Source: Candidatus Saccharimonadales bacterium
GTDB lineage: Bacteria > Patescibacteriota > Saccharimonadia > Saccharimonadales > DATKHC01
Assembly: GCA_035510465.1 (NCBI GenBank)
Contig: DATKHC010000021.1
Span: 130,876 to 194,875 of the forward strand
Reading direction: 5' to 3'
Length of the DNA stretch: 64,000 nucleotides
A program made the translations under genes and the position numbers. This document shows positions 15,265 through 49,965 of this stretch, in pieces. Position 1 is the stretch's first letter. Each line of letters starts with the position of its first letter. The notes under the pieces were generated by a model, which did not search any database, had not been told where the DNA came from, and saw only the letters and a list, made by a program, of their open reading frames with translations.

Positions 15265-15426
15265 ATGTCAGAAACGAGAGGGACGACAAATAAGACAAAG
15301 CAGCCACCAGAGGTTGCCTTATCTGAAGCTGAGCGCATTGAGTTAATCGCTAATTTAATAATCGACATTATTAGCGAGGAGCAAGAAAAACAAATTCCTG
15401 GGGACGAACTATGCAAAGTGAGTTAG
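15265..15426 (+). CDS. Micro-ORF upstream of the LSR (53 aa), candidate accessory/directionality factor
   Basis: Below the track cutoff. It overlaps the LSR start. It shares the helix motif ..ELIANLIIDIISEE.. with micro-ORFs upstream of other LSRs at 31529 and 55444. Confidence 0.35.
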   Translation: MSETRGTTNKTKQPPEVALSEAERIELIANLIIDIISEEQEKQIPGDELCKVS

Positions 15427-17138: not shown

Positions 17139-17171
17139 GTCCCTCGTGTATACCAATTCCACCACCCGCGC
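17086..17171 (-). tRNA. tRNA-Leu (anticodon UAA), class II long variable arm, CCA encoded
   Basis: Manual cloverleaf: acceptor GCGCGGG/CCCGCGC, anticodon stem AGGGA/TCCCT with loop CTTAAAA, T arm GCGGG-TTCGAGT-CCCGC. Confidence 0.9.
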
Positions 17172-25226: not shown

Positions 25227-25329
25227 TGGTGCAGCATATGTGACGCATTTCAAACATCTGCTATTGAAAAGTTTGGCGATATTAAACTTGGCTAAGCTCT
25301 TTGGATTATCGGCTAGTTTGCTTGATTAG
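25227..25329 (+). repeat. Relic att junction B (core TGGTGCAG plus frameshifted recombinase tail)
   Basis: Reads WCSICDAFQTSAIEKFGDIKLG*, then in another frame AKLFGLSASLLD*. This is homologous to the intact tail at 33341..33460. Confidence 0.55.
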
Positions 25330-25338
25330 GGTTCGACT

Positions 25339-25722
25339 TTACAGCTCTTTTACATGGCTGCCGCCATGCTTTACCAATTCTTTGTCAAATGTAACAAGTG
25401 TGTTGTTATATAGTTTTGATTCGGTTGCAGCATAGCAATCTACGATAGATAGGCTTTTCTTCGCACCGTATAAATCTATAGCTTGGTCTAAAAAGTAGTC
25501 ATTGTAAATTACATTGGGTAGGCTCAAAAAAGTTTTGACTAGCTTAACTATATCAGAGCGTTCCATGCCAATAACTTTTTCAAGCACAAATATTATTTCT
25601 ACAGCTACAACATCAGTTACATATGATGCTGAATTAGTGATGACCTCCTTGGACTTGAAGCCCTGCTCAGGAATATCGTTGAGCAAGTAACGAAGTACTA
25701 CGTTCGTATCAAGGCTATTCAC
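25339..25722 (-). CDS. vapC: PIN-domain toxin (VapC family)
   Basis: 127 aa with N-terminus MNSLDTNVVLRYL. Overlaps the upstream antitoxin gene by 8 nt. Confidence 0.8.
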   Translation of the reverse strand: MNSLDTNVVLRYLLNDIPEQGFKSKEVITNSASYVTDVVAVEIIFVLEKVIGMERSDIVKLVKTFLSLPNVIYNDYFLDQAIDLYGAKKSLSIVDCYAATESKLYNNTLVTFDKELVKHGGSHVKEL

Positions 25723-25984
25723 TATAATCAGCTACCCAGGCTTTTGCTGCCGCTTCTTTCAATGCTTGACCAGTTAAACCTTTTTTGTGACTAGGTATCT
25801 TTTTGGTAATTTCGTCTCGTAGCTTCTCAAAATCATCTACGGTAGTGCCTCCACCGATAACAACTTGTCGATTCTTGTCTAAAGTTAGGCTAACTTTTTG
25901 TCCAGATTTAAAACCAAGCGCTTTACGTAACGGTGCGGCAATCGTTATGGTACCCTTGCTTGTTATTGTTGAAGTATATTTCAT
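25715..25984 (-). CDS. AbrB/SpoVT (MazE-like) antitoxin
   Basis: 89 aa. SKGTITIAAPLRKALGFKSGQKVSL is a swapped-hairpin AbrB-type motif. Confidence 0.75.
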   Translation of the reverse strand: MKYTSTITSKGTITIAAPLRKALGFKSGQKVSLTLDKNRQVVIGGGTTVDDFEKLRDEITKKIPSHKKGLTGQALKEAAAKAWVADYSE

Positions 25985-26105: not shown

Positions 26106-26210
26106 TTGGTGCAGCGTGTGGGTAAAAGTTTTCACCTTATTAGAGATGAGATAGCTCGTTGGAGAGAAATCTTGGAAGTCCCCTATCAAGAATATCTGCT
26201 TAATAACTAA
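26106..26210 (+). other. Detached C-terminal tail coding segment of LSR 31795..33357 (att junction D)
   Basis: In the recombinase frame (xTG GTG C) it is stop-free for 34 codons: LVQRVGKSFHLIRDEIARWREILEVPYQEYLLNN*. It is homologous to the ssrA-array tails (SPLIFDEIRRWRYLLWDDYIYY). Confidence 0.6.
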
Positions 26211-26236
26211 GAGCTGGGAGTTACACTCATATCATT

Positions 26237-26677
26237 ATGGAGAATAGAGACACAACAAAGCAACAGCTAATCAGCAATCAACATTCTAGTGTTATGGGTC
26301 GTCCAAGAAGAATAACTGAGGGTGACACCTATTATCTAATTGAGCTGTTCAAAAAGGGCTATACAGTGACAATAGCCTGTCGTAAAGCTGGAATACCAAG
26401 CTCTACTTACTATGATGAGTTTGCAAGCAATGAAGACTTTTCGGACAAAGTAACAGCTGCTCAAGAAATAATGACAGTCCAGGCGACACGCATTATTAAG
26501 GGAGCATTGAGTAGGGGTGACTTGAAAACAGCCATGTGGTTTCTTGATAGACAAGATAGGCGTGAGAGAAATGCTCAACGAGCAAAAGAGTATCGTTTGG
26601 TAAAAAAGCTAACTGTCACCAAGTCTTACAAAGAAACACAGTCAGTTGAGCTTGAGATAGATACTGTTACAGATTAG
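26237..26677 (+). CDS. HTH DNA-binding protein (element regulator or terminase-small-subunit-like)
   Basis: 146 aa. YYLIELFKKGYTVTIACRKAGIPSSTYYDEF is an HTH-like segment. Confidence 0.45.
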   Translation: MENRDTTKQQLISNQHSSVMGRPRRITEGDTYYLIELFKKGYTVTIACRKAGIPSSTYYDEFASNEDFSDKVTAAQEIMTVQATRIIKGALSRGDLKTAMWFLDRQDRRERNAQRAKEYRLVKKLTVTKSYKETQSVELEIDTVTD

Positions 26678-26678
26678 G

Positions 26679-27284
26679 TTATTTTCTTTTAAGTGCTATG
26701 GTAAACCAATCCGTTTTGCCAATTTTTTGGTGAGCTTCGTGAACAGTAGTAAATGAGCTACCTGCAAGCTCTCTGATTAAGTCAATGTTATAGTAGTAAA
26801 ACATTCGTTCGCCGTACTCATCTTTTTTGGCCTCTTCAGTGTAAGTCTCACGCTCTTTGAGAGAGATATAAAATACACCGCCTGAGCGTAATGACTGAGC
26901 AGCTTTTTCAAAAACCTTTGGCAGGTCAGTTTTATTGGCATGAAGTAAAGACGCAAAGGCAAAGATAACATCTACATTTTGGGGGTAGTGATAGGTTAAG
27001 GCGTCTGCAACAACAAATGATGTGCTTGGTAAGTTTTTCTCAGCAATTTCTAGCAAACCCTTTGATGGGTCAAAGCCCTCATACCAACCTACACGCTTAA
27101 CTATCTCTATTGCGTCACGACCATCACCACAACCAATCTCTACTGCTCTAGCTGTATTATCAGCACCTGCAAGTTTAAGCCCAAGTTCAATATCATCAAC
27201 CCTTGCTCCAATACCTTTGAAGTATTTAGCCAAAGCCTGTGCTGAGCTGTCATAAGTCTTTATAGTTTGAGTGTTCCAGTCCAT
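26679..27284 (-). CDS. Class I SAM-dependent methyltransferase
   Basis: 201 aa with motif I VEIGCGDGRDA. No DPPY/NPPY-type DNA methyltransferase motif seen. Confidence 0.75.
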   Translation of the reverse strand: MDWNTQTIKTYDSSAQALAKYFKGIGARVDDIELGLKLAGADNTARAVEIGCGDGRDAIEIVKRVGWYEGFDPSKGLLEIAEKNLPSTSFVVADALTYHYPQNVDVIFAFASLLHANKTDLPKVFEKAAQSLRSGGVFYISLKERETYTEEAKKDEYGERMFYYYNIDLIRELAGSSFTTVHEAHQKIGKTDWFTIALKRK

Positions 27285-27307
27285 TGATATGAGTATATAA
27301 CAGATGT

Positions 27308-29044
27308 TTAAGTTTGGTCGTGCTTAAAATACGACTTCATAAGTCTTTTGGTGTGTTTTTCAAAATCACTCATTAGTGACTTATTAAGCGGTATTTTTAT
27401 GCCCTGAGAATATAGGTGGTTTTTGAAGCTAAAATCATTGTTTATATCAGCCTTTGAAACCTTTTGAGAGTAGTCAATAAGTAACTGCTCAATGTCGTCT
27501 TTGGTCATTTCGGTTGCCATAGCTTCAAGAAACTCCACTTCCTCAATGGTTATGTAGATAAACGGCAGCAAATATGGCTCGTTGAACTTTACTCCATTAG
27601 CCCTTAACATCTTTTGATAGAACATATAGTGAAATGCCTCAGCAGGTAGGTAGTCAGACACTATTAAGATTGGTAGTATCTTACGCTTGCCAATACTTTC
27701 TTTTAGCACAAACTTGCCATCAATAATGTCCTTAGCGTGGCTGACGGCCTGAACAATGCCTTTCTTCTTGCCAAAACACTGTCCAAACGGAGTTGCTAAA
27801 TCTTGCTCGTTACCAGTAACTGTTGCCTTGTAAGATAAGTGAATAGATTTTTCTTCAAATAGTAAAATGCTTTGCTTACCCTCATAGATACCATCAGCCC
27901 TTTTGCTTTTGTCTTCAGCAACTCTACGATAGCCAGCCCCCAAGATTTTTTTAAGACTTGTGTCTGCATAATGTTCAAATGCTTCGCCCCACAAGCTCGG
28001 CAAGAGGTTGTATTGCTTGGTAAGACCCTTATCTCTCAAGTAGTCGGAGACAATCATATAAGCACCCTCAGTAGTTTTTGAGACAAGATACTCTGGTGAT
28101 GGTGCAGCAAGCAGGTGGTCAGCAACTTCAACTAGCGGAAACTTGCGAAGAAAAAGGTAGTTATAGTCGTAAATATCTTTATTGCTCAGAACGCCAAGCG
28201 ACCAAGAGTATATAGCTGCAAAGTCTTTGGGTGAAAATGTGAGCAGTTTGTATAGTTTTTCAAGATTAGCTTGAGTGACTTTGACTTCTTTGAAGTGTGT
28301 TCTTTTATCTATGTACCAGTCTTGGTCTAAGTTGAAGTCTTCTTTTTTTATTCCCCACCGCATAGACAACATTGTGCCAATGTCATAGTAGAGCTTAAGG
28401 CTCAAACCAGTTGCCTCTTTGAAATACTTACTGAAGCCAAAGTCACTATGGTGAGCTGCTAGGTAGTTGATTATTTTTAAGTGCCTATACAGGGGGTTTG
28501 GAAACTTTTCTTCTACTGTAAAGACCAACCGCCTGAACATAAACTCTCTTATCTTGATACGACTGTAATCAGCAGGTACTACTAAGGTTGATGGCGTAAA
28601 GTAATTTGCGTCAATATAGTCTGTCAGGCTCAGTAAGATTTTTGCAATCTCTGGTGTTAGTTCAGGACTAATCAGCTTGCCACCTTTTGTCGGACAGCTC
28701 TCAAGTGCAAGTTTCAAGAAAAGCAGAGCCGAGTGTTTTGAAAATAAGCCCCAACTGTCTGTGGCTTCATTGCGAACTACCGCTTTACTGAGAAGCTTAA
28801 CAAAGGCGTCTCTTTCTTCTTTGTTATCGTACAACGACCTGATGATGTTTCGCTGACCTAAGTTAAGATTTTTTGGGCCACCTGAAGTATGAAATAAGAT
28901 AATTCCGAGTTTTGTAGAAAACTCTAGTAGTCCGTTCAGGTCATAATCTTTGAGTGCCTTTCGGATTTCATCAAGCGACATACCCTGAGAGCCATATATC
29001 TCACGATAGCCTATTGAAGTAATGCGGTATTCGTTTGTACTCAT
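27308..29044 (-). CDS. Hypothetical 578-aa protein with a possible PD-(D/E)xK nuclease core
   Basis: Clean long ORF. The segment RADGIYEGKQSILLFEEKSIH fits D..(E)xK spacing. Function is speculative. Confidence 0.55.
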   Translation of the reverse strand: MSTNEYRITSIGYREIYGSQGMSLDEIRKALKDYDLNGLLEFSTKLGIILFHTSGGPKNLNLGQRNIIRSLYDNKEERDAFVKLLSKAVVRNEATDSWGLFSKHSALLFLKLALESCPTKGGKLISPELTPEIAKILLSLTDYIDANYFTPSTLVVPADYSRIKIREFMFRRLVFTVEEKFPNPLYRHLKIINYLAAHHSDFGFSKYFKEATGLSLKLYYDIGTMLSMRWGIKKEDFNLDQDWYIDKRTHFKEVKVTQANLEKLYKLLTFSPKDFAAIYSWSLGVLSNKDIYDYNYLFLRKFPLVEVADHLLAAPSPEYLVSKTTEGAYMIVSDYLRDKGLTKQYNLLPSLWGEAFEHYADTSLKKILGAGYRRVAEDKSKRADGIYEGKQSILLFEEKSIHLSYKATVTGNEQDLATPFGQCFGKKKGIVQAVSHAKDIIDGKFVLKESIGKRKILPILIVSDYLPAEAFHYMFYQKMLRANGVKFNEPYLLPFIYITIEEVEFLEAMATEMTKDDIEQLLIDYSQKVSKADINNDFSFKNHLYSQGIKIPLNKSLMSDFEKHTKRLMKSYFKHDQT

Positions 29045-29307
29045 ACTACCTACATTATATCTCTGCTACACCTTACAAGTGCTATAATTTCAGCAACGCC
29101 CAAAGCGTTGTAACAATTTGGTATGACCTAACCCCAAGCATTTGTTTGGGTATGGTCGTAAATCCTAATCAGAGCCTTGAGCTAGTTGTTCAGGTATCTG
29201 ATTAGGTCATAGTCCGAAAGGTCTATGGGTGGCCGCAAGGTCGCCGCCTGGCAGCTAGCTCTGTTGTTTTCTGTCAGGCTAACTAACAAAGTCTGAAAGG
29301 AGACAAT

Positions 29308-29982
29308 GTGTCATTATTCAAAAAAGCACTCAATGTTACACCAGCCTATCAAGCTGCAAAGTTAGGCTCTAAGCTAAGTCAGCAACATAAACAGCAAAAC
29401 CAAGAAAAGGCAGTGGCAGCACAATCGGCTCAACCAGTTGAAGCTGCTCAACCTAAGCCAAAAATCAAAAAACTAAGTTTTACTTACTCAAAATACTTAG
29501 GCGGTCACTCTAAGCTTGGCAAAGCTCGTCAGGGCAATCTTTATCTGACAGATGAGAAAATTGGTGTTGGCACATTCGGCCCAAGCCATTCTGCTTTACT
29601 TTGGACAGATGTTGCCAGCGTAGATGTAAGTGGTGAACAAGTAAGTAAGTCAAAGATTGGAGCAACTCTAGTATTCGGTGTGTTCGGTGGTTTGGCAGCA
29701 AAGGGTACAAAAAACCAAGCAGCAATAATTATTCACACCAAAGACAACGAAGTTGCATATTACCAGATAGATAAAGTAAGCCAATTAGAGGCTAAGGCTA
29801 AAATTACGCCCTTACTTCACGCTGTTGGTGTACCACTGAGTGATGAAACAGCACAGCAGCCTCAAGCACCTCAAGTCAATGATGTTACAGAGCAACTAAC
29901 ACAGCTCTCTAAGCTCAAGGAGCAAGGCATATTGACTGAGGCAGAGTTTACTGCCAAGAAGAAGCAGTTACTCGGCTTGTAG
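29308..29982 (+). CDS. SHOCT-domain protein
   Basis: GTG start with SD aaggag upstream. C-terminal LSKLKEQGILTEAEFTAKKKQLLGL is the SHOCT motif. Confidence 0.7.
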   Translation: MSLFKKALNVTPAYQAAKLGSKLSQQHKQQNQEKAVAAQSAQPVEAAQPKPKIKKLSFTYSKYLGGHSKLGKARQGNLYLTDEKIGVGTFGPSHSALLWTDVASVDVSGEQVSKSKIGATLVFGVFGGLAAKGTKNQAAIIIHTKDNEVAYYQIDKVSQLEAKAKITPLLHAVGVPLSDETAQQPQAPQVNDVTEQLTQLSKLKEQGILTEAEFTAKKKQLLGL

Positions 29983-29991
29983 GGGTTGAAT

Positions 29992-30765
29992 ATGAAAATA
30001 TATGATAATTTCAAGAACAAAATCAAAGGCGTTGTTAGGTTATTAGATAAAAGGTACAGAGGCTTCCCAGTAGGCGTATTGGTTGGTATAGCCATAGTTG
30101 CAGGTACTTCGGCTTATGCAGCACCAATGCTTCTTAGTAGTAAGCCTGTAAGCAAGACCACAGACAGTAGCTCATCAGCCCAGCACCTGACACAAAGCAA
30201 TAACCCTAAGCAGCCTAACAATACTTCAAACAGCACCAACACAGGCACGACTACGCCCACTAACCAGTCAGGCAGCACCACCTCATCAAACTCAAAGTCC
30301 AGTAGTTCGCCAACAAGTAGCAGCTCGTCTTCAAGCTCAACAAATACGCCAGCGTCAAACACACCTACAAAGCCAACCCCTACGATTACAGGCATTTCTG
30401 TCGTCACATCATCAGGCGGTCAAACAGTGACAGTAAACTACCCTGTCTGTGATTTTCAGTCTATCAACAGTGGCACACCAGAGACTTGCTATCACTATGT
30501 ACCTCTGCCGTTCAGCCTAGTAGCAAAATACTCAGACGGCTCTACTGCACCTCTATCATGGTCAGACGCTACTGAGACATCACTTAGTTACGATATACCG
30601 AGACTGTTCAGTGTAGACGCTTCAAACAACACATTGCTAGAGGGCAACGGACTTCAATACTACAACTACCCTATGAACAGCACCGTTCCAATGAACATTA
30701 CATATCAGAGTTGGACTTACACCGAATACATCAATGTCATAATAAACAGTCTTTGGGGTAGTTGA
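29992..30765 (+). CDS. Membrane-anchored S/T-rich surface protein
   Basis: TM VGVLVGIAIVAGTSAYAAP followed by a long S/T/N-rich linker. The track begins at TTG 29986. Confidence 0.65.
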   Translation: MKIYDNFKNKIKGVVRLLDKRYRGFPVGVLVGIAIVAGTSAYAAPMLLSSKPVSKTTDSSSSAQHLTQSNNPKQPNNTSNSTNTGTTTPTNQSGSTTSSNSKSSSSPTSSSSSSSSTNTPASNTPTKPTPTITGISVVTSSGGQTVTVNYPVCDFQSINSGTPETCYHYVPLPFSLVAKYSDGSTAPLSWSDATETSLSYDIPRLFSVDASNNTLLEGNGLQYYNYPMNSTVPMNITYQSWTYTEYINVIINSLWGS

Positions 30766-30810
30766 TAAAGAAAGCTCAGTTGTTCAGCTAAAAAATTGTA
30801 TAGTTTTACT

Positions 30811-31476
30811 ATGACAAAGCGAAAAGCTAGTGTCTGGCAACGAGCCATGTACCTAACAAGTAAGCCAGACTTCATAGATGATATTTTAGCCATTAGAGAA
30901 AAGTTTAGTCTCCCCACTGACGGTTTTATCTCTGACGAGGCTGTTGAAGCATGGAGAGAAAAGTATATCTATTACAAACCAGTTAGCCCTGAAGATGATA
31001 TTGAAGACGGTATTGACCTAGCTGTTGCTCGGATTATTACAAAACCAGGGTATGAGCTATCGCCTGGCTGGCATAACTCTGTCAAACGCTTTTTGCTACT
31101 AAACAATGTTGAAGATATGCAACTACCAGTGAGTATTGGCAATCAGTTGGTTGAAGATAAAGTGACCAAACAGCTCACAATCCATATTGTCGTCTCCGAA
31201 GATACCAGCAAGCAAGATTACATTGATGAGTGGGAGAACATTGAGCGAATAAGAAGTATGCGACAACTAAAAACTCCTAAACAAAGGCGACTTGCACACC
31301 CTCATATACTTAGGCGTAAAAAATTGGCTTATGAGACTTGGGTGATAACTGGCTCTTATGAAGAGGCTGCAAAAGCAGTTATAGCAAAGTACCCAAAAGA
31401 GGTTGAAGTAAAAGGCTACAATTCAGATAGTGCAAAAACTGATATATCTAACTTCATAAAGCAAGCAGGTATTTAG
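30811..31476 (+). CDS. Hypothetical protein
   Basis: ORF with ATG at 30811 (the track starts at TTG 30796). No motif recognised. Confidence 0.55.
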   Translation: MTKRKASVWQRAMYLTSKPDFIDDILAIREKFSLPTDGFISDEAVEAWREKYIYYKPVSPEDDIEDGIDLAVARIITKPGYELSPGWHNSVKRFLLLNNVEDMQLPVSIGNQLVEDKVTKQLTIHIVVSEDTSKQDYIDEWENIERIRSMRQLKTPKQRRLAHPHILRRKKLAYETWVITGSYEEAAKAVIAKYPKEVEVKGYNSDSAKTDISNFIKQAGI

Positions 31477-31528
31477 TGCTGGCTTAAATAAACTTACCTA
31501 GCAACTGTATGAGCGTAAGTTGTAGGGT

Positions 31529-31711
31529 ATGTCACTTGTTAGGTCTAAGCCATCAAGAAGCGTTGAGGTTGATGAGAAATCATTCAAGACTAAACGCAAA
31601 GAAGACGCTCTTGAGCTTGCTCAAATCTTATATGACATCTTCAAAGAAAAGCAGGCTAATGATAAACTTAAAAATGGACAAAACAATGCACAACAAATCA
31701 CAAACAGTTAG
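31529..31711 (+). CDS. Micro-ORF upstream of the LSR (60 aa), candidate accessory factor
   Basis: ..ALELAQILYDIFKE.. shares the helix motif seen at 15265 and 55444. Confidence 0.4.
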   Translation: MSLVRSKPSRSVEVDEKSFKTKRKEDALELAQILYDIFKEKQANDKLKNGQNNAQQITNS

Positions 31712-31794
31712 TTTATTAGTATCAGTGGGAGCTTTCGTAGGCCTTGCATTGGCCTTGTCCAGGAAGCTCCCTCTTATATTAGTAAGGAGCTGTT

Positions 31795-33357
31795 ATGCCT
31801 AAACAAATACTAGCCATAGCATTGTGCAGAGTATCTTCTCTTGAGCAGTTACAAAGTCACAGTCTTGATAATCAAAAAGACAAAGTATTAAGAGCTGCTG
31901 AGGTACTTGGAGCAACCATACCTGCTGATGGTATATGGTCAGGTCATGTATCAAGTAAAAAGGGCGTGAACTATGACCGCAAAGACCTCAAGGAAATGCT
32001 TGAATACTGTAAGAAAACTCCAAATGTTAAGTACCTTATAGTTCAAGAGGTAGATAGGTTTATGAGAAGCCCTGATGAGCAGGTGTATTTCCAGGTCAAG
32101 TTTAGTGAAGAGGTGGGAGTTAAGATATGGTATGCCGATAAGCCTGAGCTTAATGAAGATAATATATATGCTGGCCTGATGAGGTACATGGAGGGGTTTC
32201 GTGCTGCTGGCAGCAATGATGAACGCCAAAGAAAATCAATCACAGGACAAACAAACGCCCTTAACGCTGGAAGATACCCATTTGCTCCAAAGCCAGGCTA
32301 TATTAGGGGGCATATTCCTGGCATACAAGAGCTTCACCCTGTTAGAGGCAAAATACTACAAGATACTTTGATTAGCATTGTTACTAAACGATTATCACCC
32401 ACTCAAGCTCTCATTAAGCTAAATGATAGCGAGTATATGCAGGGTCATTCTCCATACAAAATGGACAAGTTCAGGACTATCGTCACAGACCCTTTTTATG
32501 CTGGAATTGTTGAAATTGATAAACAAGTACAAGTCCGAAACGAAAACGGCTTGCATGAGCCACTGATAACCAAAGAGCAACACAACAAGCTACTTGAGAT
32601 TATGAACGCTAAGAAAAAGGTGCAAGCTGGCCCAAGAAAAGGCGGTAACCCTGAATACCCATTATCAAACCAAGTAAATTGTATTGAGTGCAGAGAGGCA
32701 AGGAATGGCCGACTTGTGGGCTACAAACATGGTAACGGCAAACCTAACTCAACGCTCGTGTATCACAAGTATCGCTGTCGGTCTTGTGCTAGATACCAGT
32801 CCAGAGAGGAACTTCACCCAAAAATTGCTCAAAAGTTCAATGAGAGGCCAGTCACTGATGGCGGTAAGCAAGACCTGTTAGAGGCGTTGAAGATAGTTTG
32901 GGAGCAAAATGAAAGCCAAGTAGAACAAGACATAAACCGCTTGCAACATAGCATTGACCAGCTTGATAGCTTTATTGAAGAGCGAGTAAATGCTGCAACT
33001 GACCCAAAGTACAGTGCGATTGCAACAGACATCATGAAGTTGGTAGAGAAAAAGAAGACCGAACGCTCAAAGTTACAAGAGCAGCTTTCAAACCTTACTA
33101 CAACGGCTGATGAAGATAATGAACGGTTTCTTGATTTTGCCTTTGATTATCTTAACGACATAGGTAAAAACTTCTTCAGCCCTGATGTGTCACTTGAAAA
33201 CAGATTGAGGTGTAAACAAGCTATATTTCCAGCAGGATTTTGGGTTGATAAAAATAGAAAAGTTTACACCCCTGAAATAAGCTATCTTTACAGATTGGCG
33301 GAAAAGAAAAAGGACGCCAGAGCGTCCAATAATTCCCTAATGGTGCGGCATAGCTGA
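31795..33357 (+). CDS. Large serine recombinase (integrated, C-terminally truncated form)
   Basis: 520 aa. AIALCRVSSLEQ motif, zinc ribbon CIECREA..YRCRSC and a coiled coil. It ends SLMVRHS*, 3 codons after the TGGTGC core. Confidence 0.9.
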   Translation: MPKQILAIALCRVSSLEQLQSHSLDNQKDKVLRAAEVLGATIPADGIWSGHVSSKKGVNYDRKDLKEMLEYCKKTPNVKYLIVQEVDRFMRSPDEQVYFQVKFSEEVGVKIWYADKPELNEDNIYAGLMRYMEGFRAAGSNDERQRKSITGQTNALNAGRYPFAPKPGYIRGHIPGIQELHPVRGKILQDTLISIVTKRLSPTQALIKLNDSEYMQGHSPYKMDKFRTIVTDPFYAGIVEIDKQVQVRNENGLHEPLITKEQHNKLLEIMNAKKKVQAGPRKGGNPEYPLSNQVNCIECREARNGRLVGYKHGNGKPNSTLVYHKYRCRSCARYQSREELHPKIAQKFNERPVTDGGKQDLLEALKIVWEQNESQVEQDINRLQHSIDQLDSFIEERVNAATDPKYSAIATDIMKLVEKKKTERSKLQEQLSNLTTTADEDNERFLDFAFDYLNDIGKNFFSPDVSLENRLRCKQAIFPAGFWVDKNRKVYTPEISYLYRLAEKKKDARASNNSLMVRHS

Positions 33358-33460
33358 CACATTGCAAACATCTGCAATAGAGGCTATTAACGATTATAAA
33401 CTAAAGCATCTAGCTGAACTTTTTGGCTTATCAGGCGAACTATTATCAATTAAAAAGTAA
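33341..33460 (+). other. Detached C-terminal tail coding segment of LSR 39220..40716 (att junction C)
   Basis: In the TGG TGC frame used by LSR 39220..40716 (..NLWCE*) it reads 39 codons: WCGIADTLQTSAIEAINDYKLKHLAELFGLSGELLSIKK*. Confidence 0.55.
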
Positions 33461-33464
33461 GTAA

Positions 33465-34250
33465 TTAGTTTACTCCACAGTTAATTTTATCAGCATAAAA
33501 ATCCTCAATTAGCCTCACGTCTTCATCTATATATTCAAGCATCATATGCAAGTCAACATCTAGCTCTCCATCAAATACGTTTTCCATTGCTCTAGGTGCA
33601 ATAACAGAGGCAGAGTTTGGATTATTATGCAGCGTCGTTGCATGGGCTGCCGCACATCTATATTTTTCATAGTACCGCTCTGCTGTAACCTGAACGACAT
33701 GATGATGATTGACTAAGTGGAGTATTAAGTTTCTATCACGACAGCCATGAAATGCTTCTAAAAAACGCCATGCGTTTAATAAACGCCATTCAGTTGTTAA
33801 TGTTGCATCTTTAGCCGCTCTGTATAGATGAAGTATTCTGGGCGGATTTTTTGGTTCATTAAGATAGTCTAGGTTAACTACAAATGCCTTACCCCCATTC
33901 ATAACATGCGAATCGGCGTCGTGAAACCATGCACCATCAAGCACATAGACCTTGTCTTTATACTTGCAAGTTATAGGTTTACTAAGATAGGCATCCGTCT
34001 GCGATGAGGCACATAGTACCGTTAATATCTCCTCAGTAAATATCAATGCCTGCCTCAATATAGTATTCTCTATAGCATTACTTCTTACGTTTATAGTTAC
34101 TTGTATGCCTTTTACCCCAGGGTATCTCTGCCCAGCCTCATCAACATTAAAATAGGTTGTATCACGAATAAATTTACCGCTGTCAAAGGTTGCGTTGCCA
34201 TCAATAGAAGCACTAATGTTTAATCCATAAAACTCTACCTCAGCAATCAT
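33465..34250 (-). CDS. Hypothetical protein with a possible HEPN-like Rx4H motif
   Basis: 261 aa containing ..EKYRCAAAHATT.. (R-x4-H). Otherwise unrecognised. Confidence 0.5.
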   Translation of the reverse strand: MIAEVEFYGLNISASIDGNATFDSGKFIRDTTYFNVDEAGQRYPGVKGIQVTINVRSNAIENTILRQALIFTEEILTVLCASSQTDAYLSKPITCKYKDKVYVLDGAWFHDADSHVMNGGKAFVVNLDYLNEPKNPPRILHLYRAAKDATLTTEWRLLNAWRFLEAFHGCRDRNLILHLVNHHHVVQVTAERYYEKYRCAAAHATTLHNNPNSASVIAPRAMENVFDGELDVDLHMMLEYIDEDVRLIEDFYADKINCGVN

Positions 34251-34391
34251 ATATTTACGTTACGCCTAAAAATATTTACTATCAATGTATCTAAGTTGTT
34301 TAGAGGATACTTATGCAAATAACAGAAAAAGAATATCAAGGCGAGCTATTAAGTAGCATGGATTAGCCTCGGATAATTCAAGCTCTTTTTA

Positions 34392-35723
34392 TCAATGTTT
34401 GTATAGTACCATTTGCCAGTGAACACCTCCTGGATTGATTGGTATTTCGCATAAATGGCCTGGTTTTTGTTGGTTGCACTGGCTAACATAATATTGATAG
34501 TTTAGATTTGGCAATGGTGCAATCTTCCACGAACTAGGTATTCCCATAGCCACAAACAAGACAATGAGACAGATGCAGACAATACGCATGATTATACTTT
34601 TAGCCGCCAACGCTACCCAGAGCAAGGTTACCAGCCAAACAAAAATAGGTATAAACCAATATCTCTGGCCTGCACCTGGGTCAATAAGAACTCCCCACAC
34701 ATCGACACCAGCTAAGGGGTGCAGTGAGAAAAGCACGGACACAAAAAGCAGTAATGAGTATAGATTTGCATACCTGAGCCAGCTCGGCCCTTTCCTGATG
34801 GCATAGGCAATGATAGCCAGAGCCACACCTAAGGCAATCCATAAATGAAGGCTGTTGTAGAAGTAAAAGACGTGTTTTACTCCAAAGATACTACCAGCGA
34901 ACACTTGCCCAACCATCATTTTTATCACATCAATCCATACTAGATGGTGGTAGTAACCTCGTTGGCCAGGCTCAATTATAAATAAGCTAATTAACTGAAG
35001 TAATGACGTGACGATAAGTACACCAAGATTTAACAGTGAATGACGTAGCCTGGTGTTAAACCATACAAGAAAAGCGATGATTACTAACGGAAAGGTAATT
35101 GGCCCTGTTAAGCCTGCAATCATAAGTACTACAACATCAAAAGCAACCCATAGTCGGCTTGTTGGTTTACTGGCAATCAGTAGTAAAAATGCGGCTATGG
35201 CAAAATGCCATTGTACGTTCGCTAGATTTACGAACACCTCCTGAGAGTTAATAGCTACATACAGTAGGCTAACCACTATAGCAATTAGCTGATACCTGAC
35301 AATTGGCTGCAAGCGTTTACTATTAAGTATAAATATAGGCAGCAATTGGCACGCTAGTGCTGATAAATTAAAAAAGAGAGGTGCATAGTTAAGCGGCAAG
35401 AATGTCGCTATATATGCTATTATCCGTTGAAATATAGAGAATGTTCCCGAATATGGTAAAAATAAGGTTGTACGAAGTCCATGATTGTAAGCACTCTGAA
35501 ACCAAGTAACACCATCTTCGGCCCAAAACTGTGCATGCGTAAAGGCTTCTGGTTTTCTCAAAATAATTACCAGAGTGCAAAGTGCCAGTACGCCGACTGT
35601 CAAAAGCAGCGGCCGTGAGGACAATTTTTTATCAAATTTGTCAATTTTTCTCTGTAGTTTAGTCAACCAATAGCCTGACCGTCCCCCTATGGTCTTACGA
35701 CTGGTTATTGCAGAACGCCTCAC
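34392..35723 (-). CDS. Large polytopic membrane protein (possible GT-C-type glycosyltransferase or polymerase)
   Basis: 443 aa with at least 10 hydrophobic helices. GTG start. Function inferred only from topology. Confidence 0.6.
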   Translation of the reverse strand: MRRSAITSRKTIGGRSGYWLTKLQRKIDKFDKKLSSRPLLLTVGVLALCTLVIILRKPEAFTHAQFWAEDGVTWFQSAYNHGLRTTLFLPYSGTFSIFQRIIAYIATFLPLNYAPLFFNLSALACQLLPIFILNSKRLQPIVRYQLIAIVVSLLYVAINSQEVFVNLANVQWHFAIAAFLLLIASKPTSRLWVAFDVVVLMIAGLTGPITFPLVIIAFLVWFNTRLRHSLLNLGVLIVTSLLQLISLFIIEPGQRGYYHHLVWIDVIKMMVGQVFAGSIFGVKHVFYFYNSLHLWIALGVALAIIAYAIRKGPSWLRYANLYSLLLFVSVLFSLHPLAGVDVWGVLIDPGAGQRYWFIPIFVWLVTLLWVALAAKSIIMRIVCICLIVLFVAMGIPSSWKIAPLPNLNYQYYVSQCNQQKPGHLCEIPINPGGVHWQMVLYKH

Positions 35724-35894
35724 AGTTCATCTCTGGTGTAATCTTTTAGTCTTTGAGCCATCACATCTTTCTGCACTTATCAGCCAGCTTTATATAAGCA
35801 AGCGTTATGTTATCAAATCTAGCACACCGCCTCTGCTATTGCTAACAGAATGTTAGTGGTTTGCCTGTTGCTATAAGGATAACGTTGAATTAGC

Positions 35895-36128
35895 ATGAAG
35901 CGAAATTCAACAGAGTTCAAAAACATGCGGATAAGACTTGGTAAACGTATTCAAGAGATACGCATTGAAAAAGGCATGACCCAAGAAAGTCTATCCGCTA
36001 TTTCGGGATTAGACAGAGTTTCAATTGGTTACATTGAACAGGGCAAACGTGCTGCAAGATTAAGCACTTTGCTGATACTCGCTAAAAGTCTCAAGGTAAA
36101 AATGGCTGACTTTTTTGACGGTTTCTAA
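35895..36128 (+). CDS. XRE-family HTH regulator
   Basis: 77 aa. MTQESLSAISGLDRVSIGYIEQGKRAARLSTL. Confidence 0.8.
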   Translation: MKRNSTEFKNMRIRLGKRIQEIRIEKGMTQESLSAISGLDRVSIGYIEQGKRAARLSTLLILAKSLKVKMADFFDGF

Positions 36129-36334
36129 TTCTGACTTTTCTTTAGCAACGTAGCAATATCTTCACGACGGTAACGTCTATCTCGGCGTGTGCCAAATCGC
36201 ACCGCCGTGAGGTAGCCTTTTTTGTCCCACGCTCTTAATGTATTTGGATGACAATTCAAAATCTCACTCGCTTGTTTGAGAGTTAGCAACTTAGGTTCTT
36301 TTTTCCCAGATTGTGGCATACTATAACTATACAC
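36125..36334 (-). CDS. Excisionase/MerR-type HTH protein
   Basis: 69 aa. LLTLKQASEILNCHPNTLRAWDKKGYLTAVRFGTRRDRRY. Confidence 0.7.
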   Translation of the reverse strand: MYSYSMPQSGKKEPKLLTLKQASEILNCHPNTLRAWDKKGYLTAVRFGTRRDRRYRREDIATLLKKSQN

Positions 36335-36359
36335 TACTTAACGGTGTGAGAGCGATGTG

Positions 36360-37415
36360 ATGACAAGGCCAATTGATAAGTTGCTGGAATTATATGAAAT
36401 GCTATCTGACCTACGGCTGGTTACGCCAGGTGCTAAGTTAATTCAGCTCAACCCGATTAAAGATATTGATGCTAAGAAGTTTGACCGTCAGACGCTTGAA
36501 TATCTGTTTGAGCTATTAGAAAGTGACTACAAGGTTATCACTGTACATACACGACCTGATTATAAGAATGAGTTTCATTACCGTTTTGAAATAAATGACA
36601 ACTTTGACGAAGTGTACAATCGTATTTACGTATCAGCAAAATTCGGTGTCGGTAACCTGGACTGGACATCACTTCTCAGAGTTTACGAAGTAGCACTAGA
36701 TATTAGCAGCCAGTTGAAATTCACGACATCGGACACTGTAACGCTTATAATCCCGCCTGTATCAAGTCGTTTTTTAGCATCTCTCGCTTTTGATACAATT
36801 CCAGCGTTTCAGGCTGGTTACGAAAACGGCATCAAGTTTCTGCAAGAACAAGGTGTACTCGCCTCATATAAAACTTATTATGACCTGGATAGAAGCTATC
36901 GTGTCACAGTTAATCACATCCATCGTCCTAAGTTTGATAGGCTGATACGATTGCTGGCAATCAAGCATAAAGAGTTAGCGGGTGTTTACAAGCAAAGTCA
37001 ACCCCCACCTACAGAGGGACAGCCAGACAAAAAAAGAAACGAACAGCTCAAGAAACTTGAAACTATTTATAATGACGCTAAAGACGGAAACAAAATATCG
37101 GGGCAAGAAACAAATGATGTGCACCCTCTAGTAAGGTTTGACACTAAGACAAGTGTGCTCGTATTCGGCGATAAAACGTGTGATATACCAGACGAAACGC
37201 TAGAGCATTATATCTGTAAGTTCGCATTTAAGAACCGCCGTGTTGCTGCAAAAGAGGATGACATATTAGAGAAGACCGTAAAAAGCCAAGACAGCCAACG
37301 TGCTGTTTATGATGCGATGCTTAGGGTAAATAAAAAGGCTCGTGAGCAACTTGGTATTGAAAAACTACTAAAATATAAAGCCGCAAAAATACGAATTGAT
37401 AAAAAGTATCAGTAG
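36360..37415 (+). CDS. Hypothetical protein
   Basis: About 351 aa with no motif recognised. Confidence 0.6.
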   Translation: MTRPIDKLLELYEMLSDLRLVTPGAKLIQLNPIKDIDAKKFDRQTLEYLFELLESDYKVITVHTRPDYKNEFHYRFEINDNFDEVYNRIYVSAKFGVGNLDWTSLLRVYEVALDISSQLKFTTSDTVTLIIPPVSSRFLASLAFDTIPAFQAGYENGIKFLQEQGVLASYKTYYDLDRSYRVTVNHIHRPKFDRLIRLLAIKHKELAGVYKQSQPPPTEGQPDKKRNEQLKKLETIYNDAKDGNKISGQETNDVHPLVRFDTKTSVLVFGDKTCDIPDETLEHYICKFAFKNRRVAAKEDDILEKTVKSQDSQRAVYDAMLRVNKKAREQLGIEKLLKYKAAKIRIDKKYQ

Positions 37416-37500
37416 TAAACTGTGAGTGAAGTGTGAGCCAGTTAGCGTCTAAGTTGGGTCATTAGCCCTAAAAGTAGTCTTACGTTGTAAGGCTATTTTT

Positions 37501-37725
37501 ATGTCTACAAATAACCAACCACAACCAACAGAGCCACAAGAACAAGCCGCAAATAAAGGCGTGGCTGTTAAGTTGAGTGCGGAAGCACTACATAACTTGG
37601 CTGGCTGGTTTGATGTGCTCATTCAAATGGACTTAGCGCAAAAAGTACGTAATGAAATAAGGAGTAAAAACGATGAAAAGGCTGATATTCAAGATGCTTC
37701 AAGTAAGTCTAAGGAAGTGCATTGA
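37501..37725 (+). CDS. Small hypothetical protein
   Basis: 74 aa. Contains ..LHNLAGWFDVLIQMD.., loosely like the LSR-associated micro-ORFs. Confidence 0.45.
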   Translation: MSTNNQPQPTEPQEQAANKGVAVKLSAEALHNLAGWFDVLIQMDLAQKVRNEIRSKNDEKADIQDASSKSKEVH

Positions 37726-37788
37726 CTGGCTAATGACCTGTTGGCTATGGGTTAATAAGCACGAAAAATCCTTAGAGGAATGTAAAAG

Positions 37789-38100
37789 ATGAAAGTAAGC
37801 GAAGTAAACATTGTGCCGATAAAGGCGGTTGATGGCTTAGTTGCCTTTGCCAGTTGTGTAGTAAATAACGAGCTGTATCTTGGCTCTCTAGGCGTGCATC
37901 GCCGCTTAGACGGTTCTGGTTATCGTATAATCTACCCGACTAAACATATCGGGAAACGTGAGCTGAACTACTACAATCCAATAACTAAGGAAGCAGGTAG
38001 CGTAATTGAGCAAGCAATCGTTGCTAAGTGCCGTGAACTTTTTGAAAGAAGTGATGAAAATTATGGTAGACACAGTAAAACTACTACTGCCAATCAATGA
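37789..38100 (+). CDS. spoVG: SpoVG-family protein
   Basis: 103 aa. MKVSEVNIVPIKAVDGLVAFASCVVNNELYLGSLGVHRRLDGSGYRIIYPTK follows the SpoVG pattern. Confidence 0.65.
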   Translation: MKVSEVNIVPIKAVDGLVAFASCVVNNELYLGSLGVHRRLDGSGYRIIYPTKHIGKRELNYYNPITKEAGSVIEQAIVAKCRELFERSDENYGRHSKTTTANQ

Positions 38101-39181: not shown

Positions 39182-39219
39182 ACTAGTAACTTATGTTAAG
39201 TTAATAAGGAGTAACCATT

Positions 39220-40716: not shown

Positions 40717-40780
40717 CGGGATTCAAACCCGTGGCCTCTTCCTTGGCAAGGAAGCGCTCTATCAGCTGAGCTACACTCGC
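40705..40780 (-). tRNA. tRNA-Gly (anticodon GCC), CCA encoded
   Basis: Manual fold: acceptor GCGAGTG/CACTCGC, anticodon stem CTTCC/GGAAG with loop TTGCCAA, T arm with GGTTTGAATCC. Confidence 0.9.
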
Positions 40781-48697: not shown

Positions 48698-48870
48698 CAA
48701 AAACCCCTGAATTAACAAGGGTCATAATGCTTATGGTGGAGCACCTCCAAAATAATTCACCCCTCATATTTGATGAAATAAGGAGATAGAGGTATTTACT
48801 CTGGGATGAGTACCTATATTTCCAACAGAGTAAAACTAGCTTTAAGAAGGTAGGTATCCCCTGATGGTAT
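48698..48870 (+). repeat. ssrA-array junction unit 1 (hairpin, LSR-end remnant, core 48734-48742, tail arm with nonsense codon)
   Basis: Tail frame reads MVEHLQNNSPLIFDEIRR*, with TGG changed to TAG at 48787-48789. Hairpin cccctg..caaggg lies at 48704-48721. Confidence 0.65.
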
Positions 48871-49452: not shown

Positions 49453-49477
49453 GCATAAATAGTATCAGAAACAATAA

Positions 49478-49941: not shown

Positions 49942-49965
49942 ATGGATAATAATACCAAAAGTCAC

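What the first reader, a model, noticed from the sequence alone, without database searches (positions are those of the whole stretch)
26106..33357. Serine recombinase gene split by its own attachment site: its 32-codon C-terminal tail lies 7.2 kb away at the other end of the element
LSR 31795..33357 ends CTA ATG GTG CGG CAT AGC TGA (SLMVRHS*). At 26106 the TGGTGC core recurs. Read in exactly the recombinase frame (xTG GTG C), it opens a stop-free 34-codon frame: LVQRVGKSFHLIRDEIARWREILEVPYQEYLLNN*. That peptide is homologous to the tails following the TGGTGGAGC cores of the ssrA array (SPLIFDEIRRWRYLLWDDYIYY), although the DNA sequences differ. Joining 33348 to 26115, as in a circular excised form, would create a longer LSR ending in a conserved DEIxRWR tail. 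The integrated copy stops 3 codons past the core. So attP appears to sit inside the recombinase ORF, and integration swaps the C-terminus. This would be a built-in switch that reports the integration state. It resembles integration-dependent immunity of some mycobacteriophages, where attP lies inside the repressor gene, but here the recombinase itself is split. I am not aware of this being described for large serine recombinases.
Basis: partly seen in the sequence, partly recalled or inferred. Interest (0 to 1): 0.85.

Follow-up and report, generated by a model that had tools for sequence, protein, structure and literature searches.

The report
Recombinase gene split by its own attachment site
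A small mobile element in a Saccharibacteria genome carries a serine integrase gene that contains its own recombination site, so insertion next to a tRNA gene cuts off a conserved 32-residue tail; circular copies of related elements carry the gene whole, which gives a natural case for studying how such enzymes are switched.

Summary
LSR1 (31795..33357) ends 3 codons after a TGGTGC core. The same core at 26107 opens, in the LSR frame, a 34-codon tail.

- **Contiguous tails:** 12 of 120 homologues carry this tail joined to the gene.
- **Where the long forms sit:** of six long-form elements looked up, four are on contigs with end overlaps (two are 30-bp circles, and two show only 14-21 bp overlaps). 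The other two lie in tandem arrays. A seventh circle's LSR was not inspected.
- **Short forms:** 95 of 120 homologues run antisense into the 3' end of tRNA-Gly(GCC).
- **Tail at the far end:** 26 integrated elements (3.6-10.5 kb) keep an intact, in-frame tail there.
- **Constraint:** the tail is about as constrained as the enzyme body (pN/pS 0.32 versus 0.29).

The core is the tRNA CCA end. The element is the outer member of a tandem array at tRNA-Gly 40705..40780, and its right flank is the displaced tail of the neighbouring LSR (39220..40716), read in another frame. At least two LSR lineages (three searched groups) in this window are built this way.

The arrangement is not unprecedented. It was remarked on for Dehalococcoides DsiB in 2011 and shown experimentally for the tyrosine integrase of Mx8. 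Whether the swap acts as a switch is untested.

The parts
26106..26210 (+). Displaced C-terminal tail of LSR1 (34 codons plus stop), starting at the attL core. It also forms the P' arm of attP.
   Evidence: Translation. Natural contiguous tails of homologues match at E 1e-11 to 2e-14. The tail HMM scores 83 bits, though this window tail was one of the 13 sequences used to build that HMM.
26107..26112 (.). attL crossover core TGGTGC, the complement of a tRNA 3' end GCACCA.
   Evidence: The core is invariant in 28 reconstructed attP and 25 attB sites.
26237..26677 (+). First cargo gene, similar to a terminase small subunit.
   Evidence: phrog_4102 E 7e-13. Pfam Sf6_terminase is weak.
26679..29044 (-). 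Cargo: a SAM methyltransferase (26679..27284) and a 578-aa protein with no family match (27308..29044).
   Evidence: Pfam Methyltransf_25 E 7e-15. The padloc model mad2 matches the methyltransferase only.
29125..29245 (+). LOOT RNA (RF03000) carried by the element.
   Evidence: 84.6 bits against a gathering score of 46.4. It is also present on the circular relative L001, on L003 (21-bp end overlap only) and in the integrated element of L011.
29308..31476 (+). Three cargo ORFs: a SHOCT-domain protein (29308..29982) and two proteins of unknown function.
   Evidence: Pfam SHOCT E 1e-7. PHROGs families of unknown function.
31529..31711 (+). Conserved 60-aa ORF upstream of the LSR (..KEDALELAQILYDIFKEKQ..NGQNNAQ..). 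It is a candidate directionality factor or regulator.
   Evidence: The motif occurs upstream of 62 of 88 related LSR genes. No Pfam or PHROGs match.
31795..33357 (+). LSR1, a large serine recombinase in its truncated integrated form (520 aa, ending ..SLMVRHS*).
   Evidence: Pfam Resolvase and Recombinase domains. An AlphaFold model of a 53%-identical long-form homologue matches the SPbeta, Bxb1, phiC31 and LI integrase structures.
33302..33327 (-). Hairpin plus T-run on the tRNA strand, with the features of an intrinsic terminator, embedded in the last 20 LSR codons (GGACGC-TCTG-GCGTCC then TTTTTCTTTT on the - strand).
   Evidence: 53 of 64 related LSR 3' ends have it, against 3.8 in shuffles. 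All 6 stem pairs covary. Low pS and high pN/pS in these codons.
33341..33346 (.). attR crossover core TGGTGC. It is also the attL core of the next element in the array.
33341..33460 (+). Displaced tail of the neighbouring recombinase LSR4, read in the frame TGG TGC (WCGIADTLQTSAIEAINDYKLKHLAELFGLSGELLSIKK*).
   Evidence: LSR4 homologues P0207, P0217, P0222, P0246 and P0279 carry this tail contiguously. tblastn E 1e-9 to 7e-15.
39220..40716 (+). LSR4, a second-family large serine recombinase at the tRNA-proximal end of the array. It ends ..NLWCE* inside the tRNA.
   Evidence: Pfam Resolvase, Recombinase and Zn_ribbon_recom. Sequence.
40705..40780 (-). tRNA-Gly(GCC), the integration target of the array.
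   Evidence: ARAGORN and Rfam. 95 of 120 LSR1 homologues end in the antisense of this tRNA.
25227..25289 (+). Decayed copy of an LSR4-type tail behind a TGGTGC core, an older remnant of the array.
   Evidence: E 1e-5 against natural LSR4 tails.
55705..57321 (+). LSR2, a 28%-identical relative of LSR1 that runs antisense into the tmRNA 3' end (tmRNA 57236..57632, - strand).
48733..50592 (+). Four LSR2-type tails, each behind a TGGTGGAGC core (48733, 49511, 50001, 50518). The copy at 50518 is the cognate attL of the LSR2 element. Two of the older copies carry a TAG stop.
   Evidence: Contiguous in P0143 and P0156. E 1e-9 to 6e-19.

Best explanation
**What it is.** Window 26107..33346 is a 7.24-kb integrative element of a Candidatus Saccharimonadales genome. 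Its large serine recombinase gene contains the element's own attP.

**Circular form.**
- The gene is inferred to be 549 codons long in the circular form.
- Its last roughly 50 codons are laid out in three parts.
  1. A disordered linker, whose DNA also encodes a terminator-like hairpin on the opposite strand and the P arm of attP.
  2. The crossover core TGGTGC.
  3. A conserved two-helix tail, whose first ~25 bp are the P' arm.

**Integration.**
- The enzyme recombines this site with the 3' CCA end of a tRNA gene, normally tRNA-Gly(GCC).
- The tRNA gene stays intact, and the recombinase DNA now follows it with a hairpin and T-run.
- The recombinase ORF runs antisense into the tRNA and stops after a few arbitrary codons.
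- The real tail is left at the far end of the element with no identified start of its own.

**Reversal.** Excision restores the full gene. So does arrival of a same-family element between the gene and the tRNA.

**This window.** A second-family element (33347..40710) lies between LSR1 and the tRNA. LSR1 therefore reads that element's tail out of frame and ends RHS*.

**Shown.**
- The geometry.
- Contiguous long forms on circles and in arrays.
- Protein-level constraint on the separated tail.

**Inferred.**
- The tail is needed for full or integrative activity.
- Its loss therefore damps or redirects the enzyme while the element is integrated, by analogy with Mx8 IntP/IntX. I put this at about 0.4.
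For: **Contiguous tails.**
- 12 of the 120 best homologues are 541-549 aa and carry the tail contiguously.
- 95 of 120 end in antisense tRNA-Gly (..LVRVxxL*).

**Circles.**
- L001 and L002 are one identical 8,059-bp circle, assembled from two runs with different breakpoints.
- L084 (5,893 bp) and L088 (6,284 bp) also have 30-bp k-1 end overlaps.
- L003 and L085 have 21- and 14-bp end overlaps.
- The reported LSR product is a long form in every case (P0085, P0055, P0035, P0089, P0054). I inspected the C-terminal tail for all of these except P0054 on L088.

**Arrays.**
- Long forms on chromosomal contigs sit in tandem arrays.
- In L004, six tail copies surround the long LSR.
- In L086 and L087, a long LSR is followed 6.4 kb later by a short LSR at tRNA-Gly.

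**Integrated loci (MAG contigs, most labelled Saccharibacteria).**
- 38 distinct tails were found, all on the LSR strand.
- All are in frame with xTG GTG, and most have a stop at codon 35.
- 26 single elements measure 3.6-10.5 kb from core to core.

**Coding signature of the tail.**
- Diversity at codon positions 1/2/3 is 0.35/0.29/0.55, and dN/dS is about 0.19 over 19 independent pairs.
- For cognate pairs, tail pN is 0.221 and pN/pS 0.32, against 0.227 and 0.29 for the enzyme body.

**Frame concordance across families.** The LSR4 family uses the frame TGG TGC, and its own tail lies in that frame.

**Structure.** In the AlphaFold model of long form P0074, residues 504-521 have pLDDT below 50. 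The tail forms helices 523-536 and 538-547 at pLDDT 66-82.
Against: - No circular junction or empty site was seen for this particular element. The only other assemblies holding it (L095, L096) show the same integrated tandem form.
- No activity data exist for either form, so the tail could be dispensable.
- A conserved small ORF upstream of the LSR could be an ordinary directionality factor. That would make the tail swap incidental to direction control.
- Synonymous sites are near saturation (pS 0.6-0.8), so the dN/dS values are rough.
- Circularity rests on k-1 end overlaps of short-read contigs.
- I could not inspect where the tail docks in the model.
Confidence: 0.85

Rival explanations
1. 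The architecture is real, but the swap has no regulatory meaning. attP overlaps the gene only because the element is compact and must supply a terminator and a binding arm next to the tRNA. The short form works well enough, and direction is set by a conventional directionality factor such as the conserved small upstream ORF.
For: - A conserved 45-70-aa ORF precedes 62 of 88 related LSR genes.
- The short endings vary in length and sequence (RVRGL*, RHS*, 18-aa read-throughs), so nothing selects for a particular short tail.
- Excision must be carried out by an enzyme expressed from the integrated, truncated gene.
Against: - The tail is as constrained as the catalytic body. It stays intact in 37 of 38 distinct tail copies found in related loci. 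A dispensable appendage would not be expected to behave this way.
- In the one tested precedent, Mx8, the altered form does differ in activity (PMC6070905).
Confidence: 0.35
2. The elements are essentially small plasmids. Integrated copies are evolutionary dead ends with a crippled recombinase. The tails at attL look conserved only because the integrations are recent.
For: - Several circular contigs exist.
- Remnant arrays with decayed tails occur at 25227 and in two of the four ssrA copies.
Against: - Integrated copies come from dozens of distinct MAGs, with LSRs only 33-67% identical to LSR1. Nearly all have intact full-length ORFs and intact cognate tails.
- No replication gene was recognised on the elements examined.
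Confidence: 0.1
3. The 34-codon frame is a separate small gene or peptide, perhaps acting on the recombinase in trans, rather than the recombinase's own C-terminus.
For: The first two codons (TTG/ATG/GTG, then GTG) could serve as start codons.
Against: - The frame is always fused in frame to the LSR in circles and arrays.
- The upstream flank at attL is unconserved host DNA with no shared ribosome-binding site.
- In the LSR4 family the tail lies in the other frame, exactly matching that enzyme's frame.
Confidence: 0.04
4. The conservation is at the DNA level only, as the recombinase-binding arm of attP, and the open frame is incidental.
For: The first ~25 bp after the core (..AAAAGTTTaCAC..) are conserved even at synonymous sites.
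Against: - From codon 11 onward, third positions vary freely (0.5-0.76) while residues such as E15, W19 and Y27 stay fixed or nearly fixed.
- Conservation extends about 100 bp, well beyond a serine-integrase half-site.
- pN/pS is 0.32.
Confidence: 0.02

Closest known systems
Dehalococcoides ssrA genomic islands and their serine recombinase DsiB (McMurdie et al. 2011, PMC3146451)
   Same: - A ~540-aa large serine recombinase at the island edge.
- Its 3' end always overlaps the att site at the 3' end of ssrA, so the ORF reads into ssrA or into a neighbouring island.
- Tandem island arrays occur.
- The authors suggested the gene may be complete only on the circle or next to another island.
   Different: - That paper found the overlapping portion divergent and gave no evidence for a conserved tail, for circular forms or for selection.
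- The DsiB module has a second small serine recombinase (DsiA) and RecF-, ParB- and Mom-like genes. None of these was found here.
- The main target here is tRNA-Gly, and the host phylum differs.
- Sequence relatedness to DsiB could not be tested.
Myxococcus phage Mx8 integrase IntP/IntX
   Same: - attP lies inside the integrase coding sequence.
- Integration gives the gene a new 3' end, and the prophage form has altered recombination properties (PMC6070905, citing Tojo 1996 and Magrini 1999).
- From my own knowledge of Magrini et al. 1999: Mx8 integrates at the 3' end of a tRNA gene, tandem prophages restore the full form, and the gene upstream of int is the excisionase.
   Different: - Mx8 Int is a tyrosine recombinase with arm-type sites, so the enzyme family and chemistry are unrelated.
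- It belongs to a ~50-kb phage rather than a 4-10-kb element.
SSV1-type integrases of Sulfolobus viruses (own knowledge)
   Same: attP lies inside the int gene, so integration partitions the gene.
   Different: - A tyrosine recombinase in archaea.
- The gene is split into two large parts and inactivated, rather than losing a short tail.
Integration-dependent immunity of mycobacteriophages (own knowledge; Broussard et al. 2013)
   Same: attP lies inside a coding sequence, so integration changes a protein's C-terminus and with it the element's state.
   Different: - The split gene is the repressor, not the recombinase.
- The integrases are tyrosine family.
Canonical large serine integrases (phiC31, Bxb1, SPbeta, A118/LI)
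   Same: The same fold and domain order: catalytic domain, recombinase domain, zinc ribbon with an inserted coiled coil.
   Different: - In those systems attP lies outside the gene, and direction is set by a separate directionality factor.
- They are not known for tRNA targets. Mageeney et al. 2020 state that use of a t(m)RNA gene by a serine integrase had not been reported.

Membership tests
Large serine recombinase (serine integrase) | N-terminal resolvase-type catalytic domain with the nucleophilic serine | tested here: met
   PF00239 E 4e-14. R12-V13-S14 are invariant in 108 homologues.
Large serine recombinase (serine integrase) | Recombinase domain followed by a zinc ribbon with an inserted coiled coil | tested here: met
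   - PF07508 scores 23 bits against a cut-off of 21.1.
- Cysteines are conserved.
- The model has beta strands at 293-334 and long helices at 373-456.
- Foldseek matches SPbeta, Bxb1, phiC31 and LI integrase at E 5e-13 to 1e-8.
Large serine recombinase (serine integrase) | Recombination of short attP and attB sites at a central dinucleotide | not testable with these tools
   Only the shared 6-bp core TGGTGC and the site anatomy were inferred.
Large serine recombinase (serine integrase) | Separate recombination directionality factor | tested here: inconclusive
   A conserved small ORF lies upstream of 62 of 88 LSR genes, but it has no family match.
Integrase genes that contain their own attP (Mx8 IntP/IntX type) | attP inside the integrase ORF, so integration replaces the C-terminus | tested here: met
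   Contiguous long forms occur on circles and in arrays, and truncated forms at tRNA genes.
Integrase genes that contain their own attP (Mx8 IntP/IntX type) | The integrated form has altered activity | not testable with these tools
   Needs a recombination assay. The only indirect evidence is that the tail is as constrained as the body.
Integrase genes that contain their own attP (Mx8 IntP/IntX type) | Tyrosine recombinase | tested here: not met
   The enzyme is a serine recombinase. The resemblance is in logic, not ancestry.
Dehalococcoides ssrA-island integration module (DsiB) | Serine recombinase gene whose 3' end overlaps the att site at the 3' end of the target RNA gene | tested here: met
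   compared with the description.
Dehalococcoides ssrA-island integration module (DsiB) | Syntenic partners DsiA (small serine recombinase), RecF-, ParB- and Mom-like genes | tested here: not met
   No such domains appear in the genes of the 26107..33346 element or of the tmRNA-linked element.
Dehalococcoides ssrA-island integration module (DsiB) | Sequence homology to DsiB | not testable with these tools
   No DsiB sequence could be fetched. None of the source names shown for hits mentions Dehalococcoides, and most hits carry no source name.
Integration-dependent immunity (mycobacteriophage type) | attP inside the repressor gene | tested here: not met
   The split gene is the recombinase.

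The most novel reading that the evidence does not exclude
The 32-residue tail is itself the directionality determinant. The full-length enzyme, which can only be made from the circular element or a same-family tandem array, integrates. The truncated enzyme made from a single integrated copy is the form able to excise, or is held inactive until a partner acts. Direction would then be written into the topology of the DNA rather than supplied by a separate factor. This would apply across a large, previously unrecognised radiation of tRNA-targeting serine integrases in Saccharibacteria and related candidate phyla. The same stretch of gene would serve as coding sequence, attP arm and tRNA terminator.
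Probability: 0.25. Interest if true: 0.85.

Novelty: new variant of a known kind. Interest (0 to 1): 0.62.

Why it matters
- **Directionality.** Serine integrases are prized genome-engineering tools because they are strictly one-way until a separate factor reverses them. A natural family in which the enzyme's own reaction removes or restores a conserved C-terminal module gives a simple test of whether direction or activity can be encoded in the recombination product itself. The test needs only two protein forms and four sites.
- **Targets.** tRNA and tmRNA genes turn out to be the routine targets of whole clades of serine integrases. A 2020 survey considered this unreported.
- **Host biology.** These small, cargo-carrying elements are common in Saccharibacteria, whose mobile elements are poorly known.
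- **Annotation.** Most database entries for this family are truncated forms ending in translated antisense tRNA. Anyone cloning them from integrated copies would test the wrong protein.

Tried and rejected
- **Circular junction or empty site for this element.** The only other assemblies holding LSR1 (L095, L096, from SRR8676596 and SRR8676597) are 100% identical to the integrated tandem form.
- **Related genome lacking the outer element.** The genome with the 91%-identical LSR4 (L091-L094) has a different, larger element and no tail within 10 kb.
- **Link to DsiB.** None of the source names shown for hits mentions Dehalococcoides, and most hits carry no source name. No tool fetches a protein by accession. 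The Mx8 primary paper (PMC93897) is not held.
- **Where the tail docks.** Only pLDDT and secondary structure are returned, and the phiC31 structure preprint does not discuss a C-terminal tail.
- **Sequence search of solved structures.** Only catalytic-domain matches came back, at E about 0.003.
- **Defence, Pfam and PHROGs scans of cargo.** Most genes remain unassigned.
- **Viral contig scan.** Only 2 relatives were found, so these are not typical phage integrases.
- **Rejected readings.** Four were considered and rejected: a chance ORF, DNA-only conservation, a separate micro-gene, and an assembly artefact. See the rival explanations.

Full report
**1. The observation**

The sequence is as described. 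ORF 31795..33357 (520 aa) has a resolvase catalytic domain and a recombinase domain. It ends CTA ATG GVG-frame as CTA ATG GTG CGG CAT AGC TGA. At 26106 the frame TTG GTG CAG... runs for 34 codons, LVQRVGKSFHLIRDEIARWREILEVPYQEYLLNN*, with a stop directly upstream. The two sites share TGGTGC.

**2.

The best database match to the enzyme is named Candidatus Saccharimonadales. The window holds five large serine recombinase genes. Three of them run antisense straight into the 3' end of an RNA gene:
- 15411..17138 into tRNA-Leu
- 39220..40716 (LSR4) into tRNA-Gly(GCC) at 40705..40780
- 55705..57321 (LSR2) into the tmRNA

TGGTGC is the complement of GCACCA, a tRNA 3' end.

The flank to the right of the LSR1 core is not host DNA. 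Read as TGG TGC GGC..., it gives WCGIADTLQTSAIEAINDYKLKHLAELFGLSGELLSIKK*. LSR4 ends in exactly that frame (..NLWCE*). Five LSR4 homologues carry this tail contiguously (P0207, P0217, P0222, P0246, P0279).

The locus is therefore a tandem array:
- attL with tail A at 26107
- element A, ending in LSR1
- a hybrid site at 33341 carrying tail B
- element B, ending in LSR4
- tRNA-Gly

LSR1 stops after RHS because it reads tail B out of frame. Four of the 120 homologues end the same way (RHSQHISNS, QHR*, QHC*, HHS*). P0284 shows the reverse order, an LSR4-type enzyme reading tail A out of frame. A decayed tail B at 25227 marks an older remnant.

**3. Do homologues carry the tail contiguously?**

Yes. 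Of the 120 best hits to the reconstructed long form, 12 are 541-549 aa and end ..LVQQVGKSLHLIRDEIxRWRxILxVPYQEYLL... Another 95 end ..LVRVxxL*, or a read-through of it. That ending is the antisense of tRNA-Gly(GCC), with the stop codon supplied by the T-loop.

**4. Where the long forms live**

I looked up seven long-form proteins.
- **Circles.**
  - P0085 lies on two 8,089-bp contigs from different runs. After the 30-bp k-1 end overlap is trimmed, they are the same 8,059-bp circle cut at different points.
  - P0035 and P0054 lie on contigs with the same 30-bp overlap (5,893 and 6,284 bp).
  - P0055 and P0089 lie on contigs with 21- and 14-bp end overlaps. Those two are less certain.
  - I inspected the C-terminal tail for all of these except P0054.
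- **Arrays.**
  - P0070 sits in a chromosomal array with six tail copies.
  - P0061 is followed 6.4 kb later by a short LSR abutting tRNA-Gly.

No long form was found at a single integrated element.

**5. The other end of integrated elements**

A genome scan gave 79 loci on MAG contigs, most labelled Saccharibacteria. A profile of the tails found 38 distinct copies. All lie on the recombinase strand and in frame with xTG GTG, and most are closed by a stop at codon 35. Twenty-six single elements measure 3.6-10.5 kb from core to core.

The tail shows a coding signature:

| Region | pS | pN | pN/pS |
|---|---|---|---|
| Tail, codons 4-34 (cognate pairs) | 0.694 | 0.221 | 0.32 |
| Enzyme body | 0.791 | 0.227 | 0.29 |
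| Last 20 codons before the core | 0.335 | 0.263 | 0.78 |

- Diversity at codon positions 1/2/3 is 0.35/0.29/0.55, and dN/dS is about 0.19 over 19 independent pairs.
- The last 20 codons behave differently from the tail. That pattern is what DNA-level constraint on a protein-level-free linker would give.

Synonymous sites are near saturation, so the ratios are rough. Their direction is not in doubt.

**6. Structure**

An AlphaFold model of long form P0074 (108-sequence alignment, mean pLDDT 81) has the serine-integrase domain order. It matches the SPbeta, Bxb1, phiC31 and LI integrase structures at E 5e-13 to 1e-8. Residues 504-521, which span the linker and the core, are below pLDDT 50. The tail forms two helices (523-536 and 538-547) at pLDDT 66-82.

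The conserved hydrophobic residues L9, I12, I16, W19 and L23 are spaced 3-4 apart. This fits a helix that packs on another helix. It is an inference, because I could not inspect contacts in the model.

**7. Generality**

- **LSR2 (tmRNA) family.** Most members read antisense into the tmRNA. Two carry the array tail contiguously (P0143, P0156).
- **LSR4 family.** See section 2.
- **LSR3 (tRNA-Leu) family.** Representatives divide into tRNA-antisense endings and longer forms with a ..WNT[LF]..E[IV]..W.. tail. A candidate displaced tail lies at 3868..4008 behind a TTGGTGCGC core. This case is only suggestive.

At least two LSR lineages (LSR1/LSR2 and LSR4), and probably a third (LSR3), are therefore built the same way.

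**8. Site anatomy**

Reconstructed sites show the following.
- TGGTGC is invariant.
- The P' arm (AAAAGTTTaCAC) is conserved even at synonymous positions.
- The tRNA half of attB is conserved.
- The other half of attB, the native flank downstream of the tRNA, carries essentially no information across 25 genomes.

This suggests that recognition relies mainly on the tRNA half. If so, a newcomer can insert between a resident recombinase gene and the tRNA, which would produce arrays with the newest element nearest the tRNA. That step is inferred.

**9. A second code in the same DNA**

On the tRNA strand, 7-19 nt past the CCA end, 53 of 64 distinct LSR 3' ends have a hairpin of at least 5 bp followed by a T-run. 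The comparison values are 1 of 64 on the sense strand, 3.8 in shuffles and 3 in an internal control.

There are 33 different stems, and all six pairs of the common 6-bp stem covary. The sequences in that alignment were pre-selected for pairing, so the percentage paired is inflated. The compensatory changes are not. The conserved 'KK' of the protein is the T-run.

The structure has the features of an intrinsic terminator. The element therefore appears to replace the tRNA terminator that it displaces.

**10. How it most likely works**

Shown:
- attP lies in the ORF.
- The integrated gene is truncated.
- The circle and same-family arrays carry the full gene.
- The separated tail is kept under protein-level selection.

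Inferred:
- The tail contributes to activity or to the choice of substrates.
- Integration therefore changes the enzyme that caused it.

The only tested precedent, Mx8, behaves this way. A conserved small ORF upstream of 62 of 88 LSR genes (window 31529..31711) may be a directionality factor. It has to be included in any test.

**11. Comparison with what is known**

- **DsiB.** McMurdie et al. 2011 recorded that the Dehalococcoides serine recombinase gene dsiB always overlaps attL at ssrA. They raised the same idea, but found the overlapping part divergent and went no further. No later paper in the held library mentions dsiB.
- **Surveys.** Mageeney et al. 2020 considered t(m)RNA targeting by serine integrases unreported. 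The large LSR survey of Durrant et al. does not mention gene/att overlap in its text.
- **Tyrosine-family analogues.** Mx8 and SSV1 are the analogues in that family. Integration-dependent immunity splits a repressor instead of the recombinase.

I therefore class this as a new variant of a known kind. What is added here:
- the conserved tail
- the circles
- the selection test
- the frame concordance in a second family
- the embedded terminator-like hairpin

**12. Limits**

- There is no functional evidence.
- No excised form of this particular copy was seen.
- Circularity rests on short-read contig overlaps.
- The relationship to DsiB is untested.

Noticed in passing
window 33302..33327 (- strand); related loci L003-L079: A hairpin plus T-run with the features of an intrinsic terminator lies on the tRNA strand inside the last 20 codons of the recombinase gene, 13 nt from the core. 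It is present in 53 of 64 related genes, with 33 different covarying stems. The conserved Lys-Lys of the protein is the T-run.
   Followed up: yes
window 33341..40780: A second element (about 7.4 kb) with a different-family serine recombinase (39220..40716) sits between LSR1 and tRNA-Gly. Its displaced tail, in the TGG TGC frame, forms the right flank of LSR1.
   Followed up: yes
window 31529..31711; upstream of 62 of 88 related LSR genes: A conserved 45-70-aa ORF with the motif ..DALxLAxLIYDxYKE..NGQNNAQ.. usually ends about 85 nt before the recombinase start. It has no family match and is a candidate directionality factor or regulator.
   Followed up: partly
window 29125..29245 (+) and 54510..54623 (-); L001 3046..3164, L003 444..564, L011 9165..9285: LOOT RNA (RF03000, function unknown) is carried on these recombinase elements. 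L001 is a circle, L003 has only a 21-bp end overlap, and L011 is integrated. Five other related loci scanned had none.
   Followed up: partly
window 26237..26677: The first gene after the tail resembles a phage terminase small subunit (phrog_4102, E 7e-13). This hints that the element may be packaged by a helper phage, as a satellite would be. The ~15 nt after the tail stop (GAGCTGGGAGTTACAC) also recur in many elements.
   Followed up: partly
window 48734..50518: Three short units (778, 490 and 517 bp) lie upstream of the tmRNA-linked element. Each consists of a tail, a small - strand ORF or none, a terminator-like hairpin, GGTCATAATGCTTA and a TGGTGGAGC core. Two tails carry a TAG stop. They could be remnants or miniature elements mobilised in trans.
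   Followed up: partly
window 3868..4008 and 15411..17171: The recombinase that ends in tRNA-Leu shares a TGGTGCGC core with a site at 3869. That site opens a stop-free 46-codon frame (LVRSTRVTWKTLYPSLIHLDEKL..). Distant family members have ..WNTL..E[IV]..W.. tails. If real, the element is about 13 kb and contains another recombinase gene (7360..8961, - strand).
   Followed up: partly
window 25339..25984; L004 12877..13522: A PIN toxin and MazE antitoxin pair of identical gene lengths sits between att-type cores, both in this window and in the array of an unrelated contig. It looks like a small cargo unit that travels within these arrays.
   Followed up: no
25 reconstructed attB sites (loci L005-L069): The half of attB downstream of the tRNA shows no sequence conservation between genomes, while the tRNA half is conserved. 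This is unusual for serine integrases and would explain why tandem insertion is easy.
   Followed up: partly
database entries P0001-P0324: Most public protein records of these families are the integrated, truncated forms. Their last 3-30 residues are translated antisense tRNA or tmRNA, for example ..RVRGL or ..ELAGTAPASxxL.
   Followed up: yes
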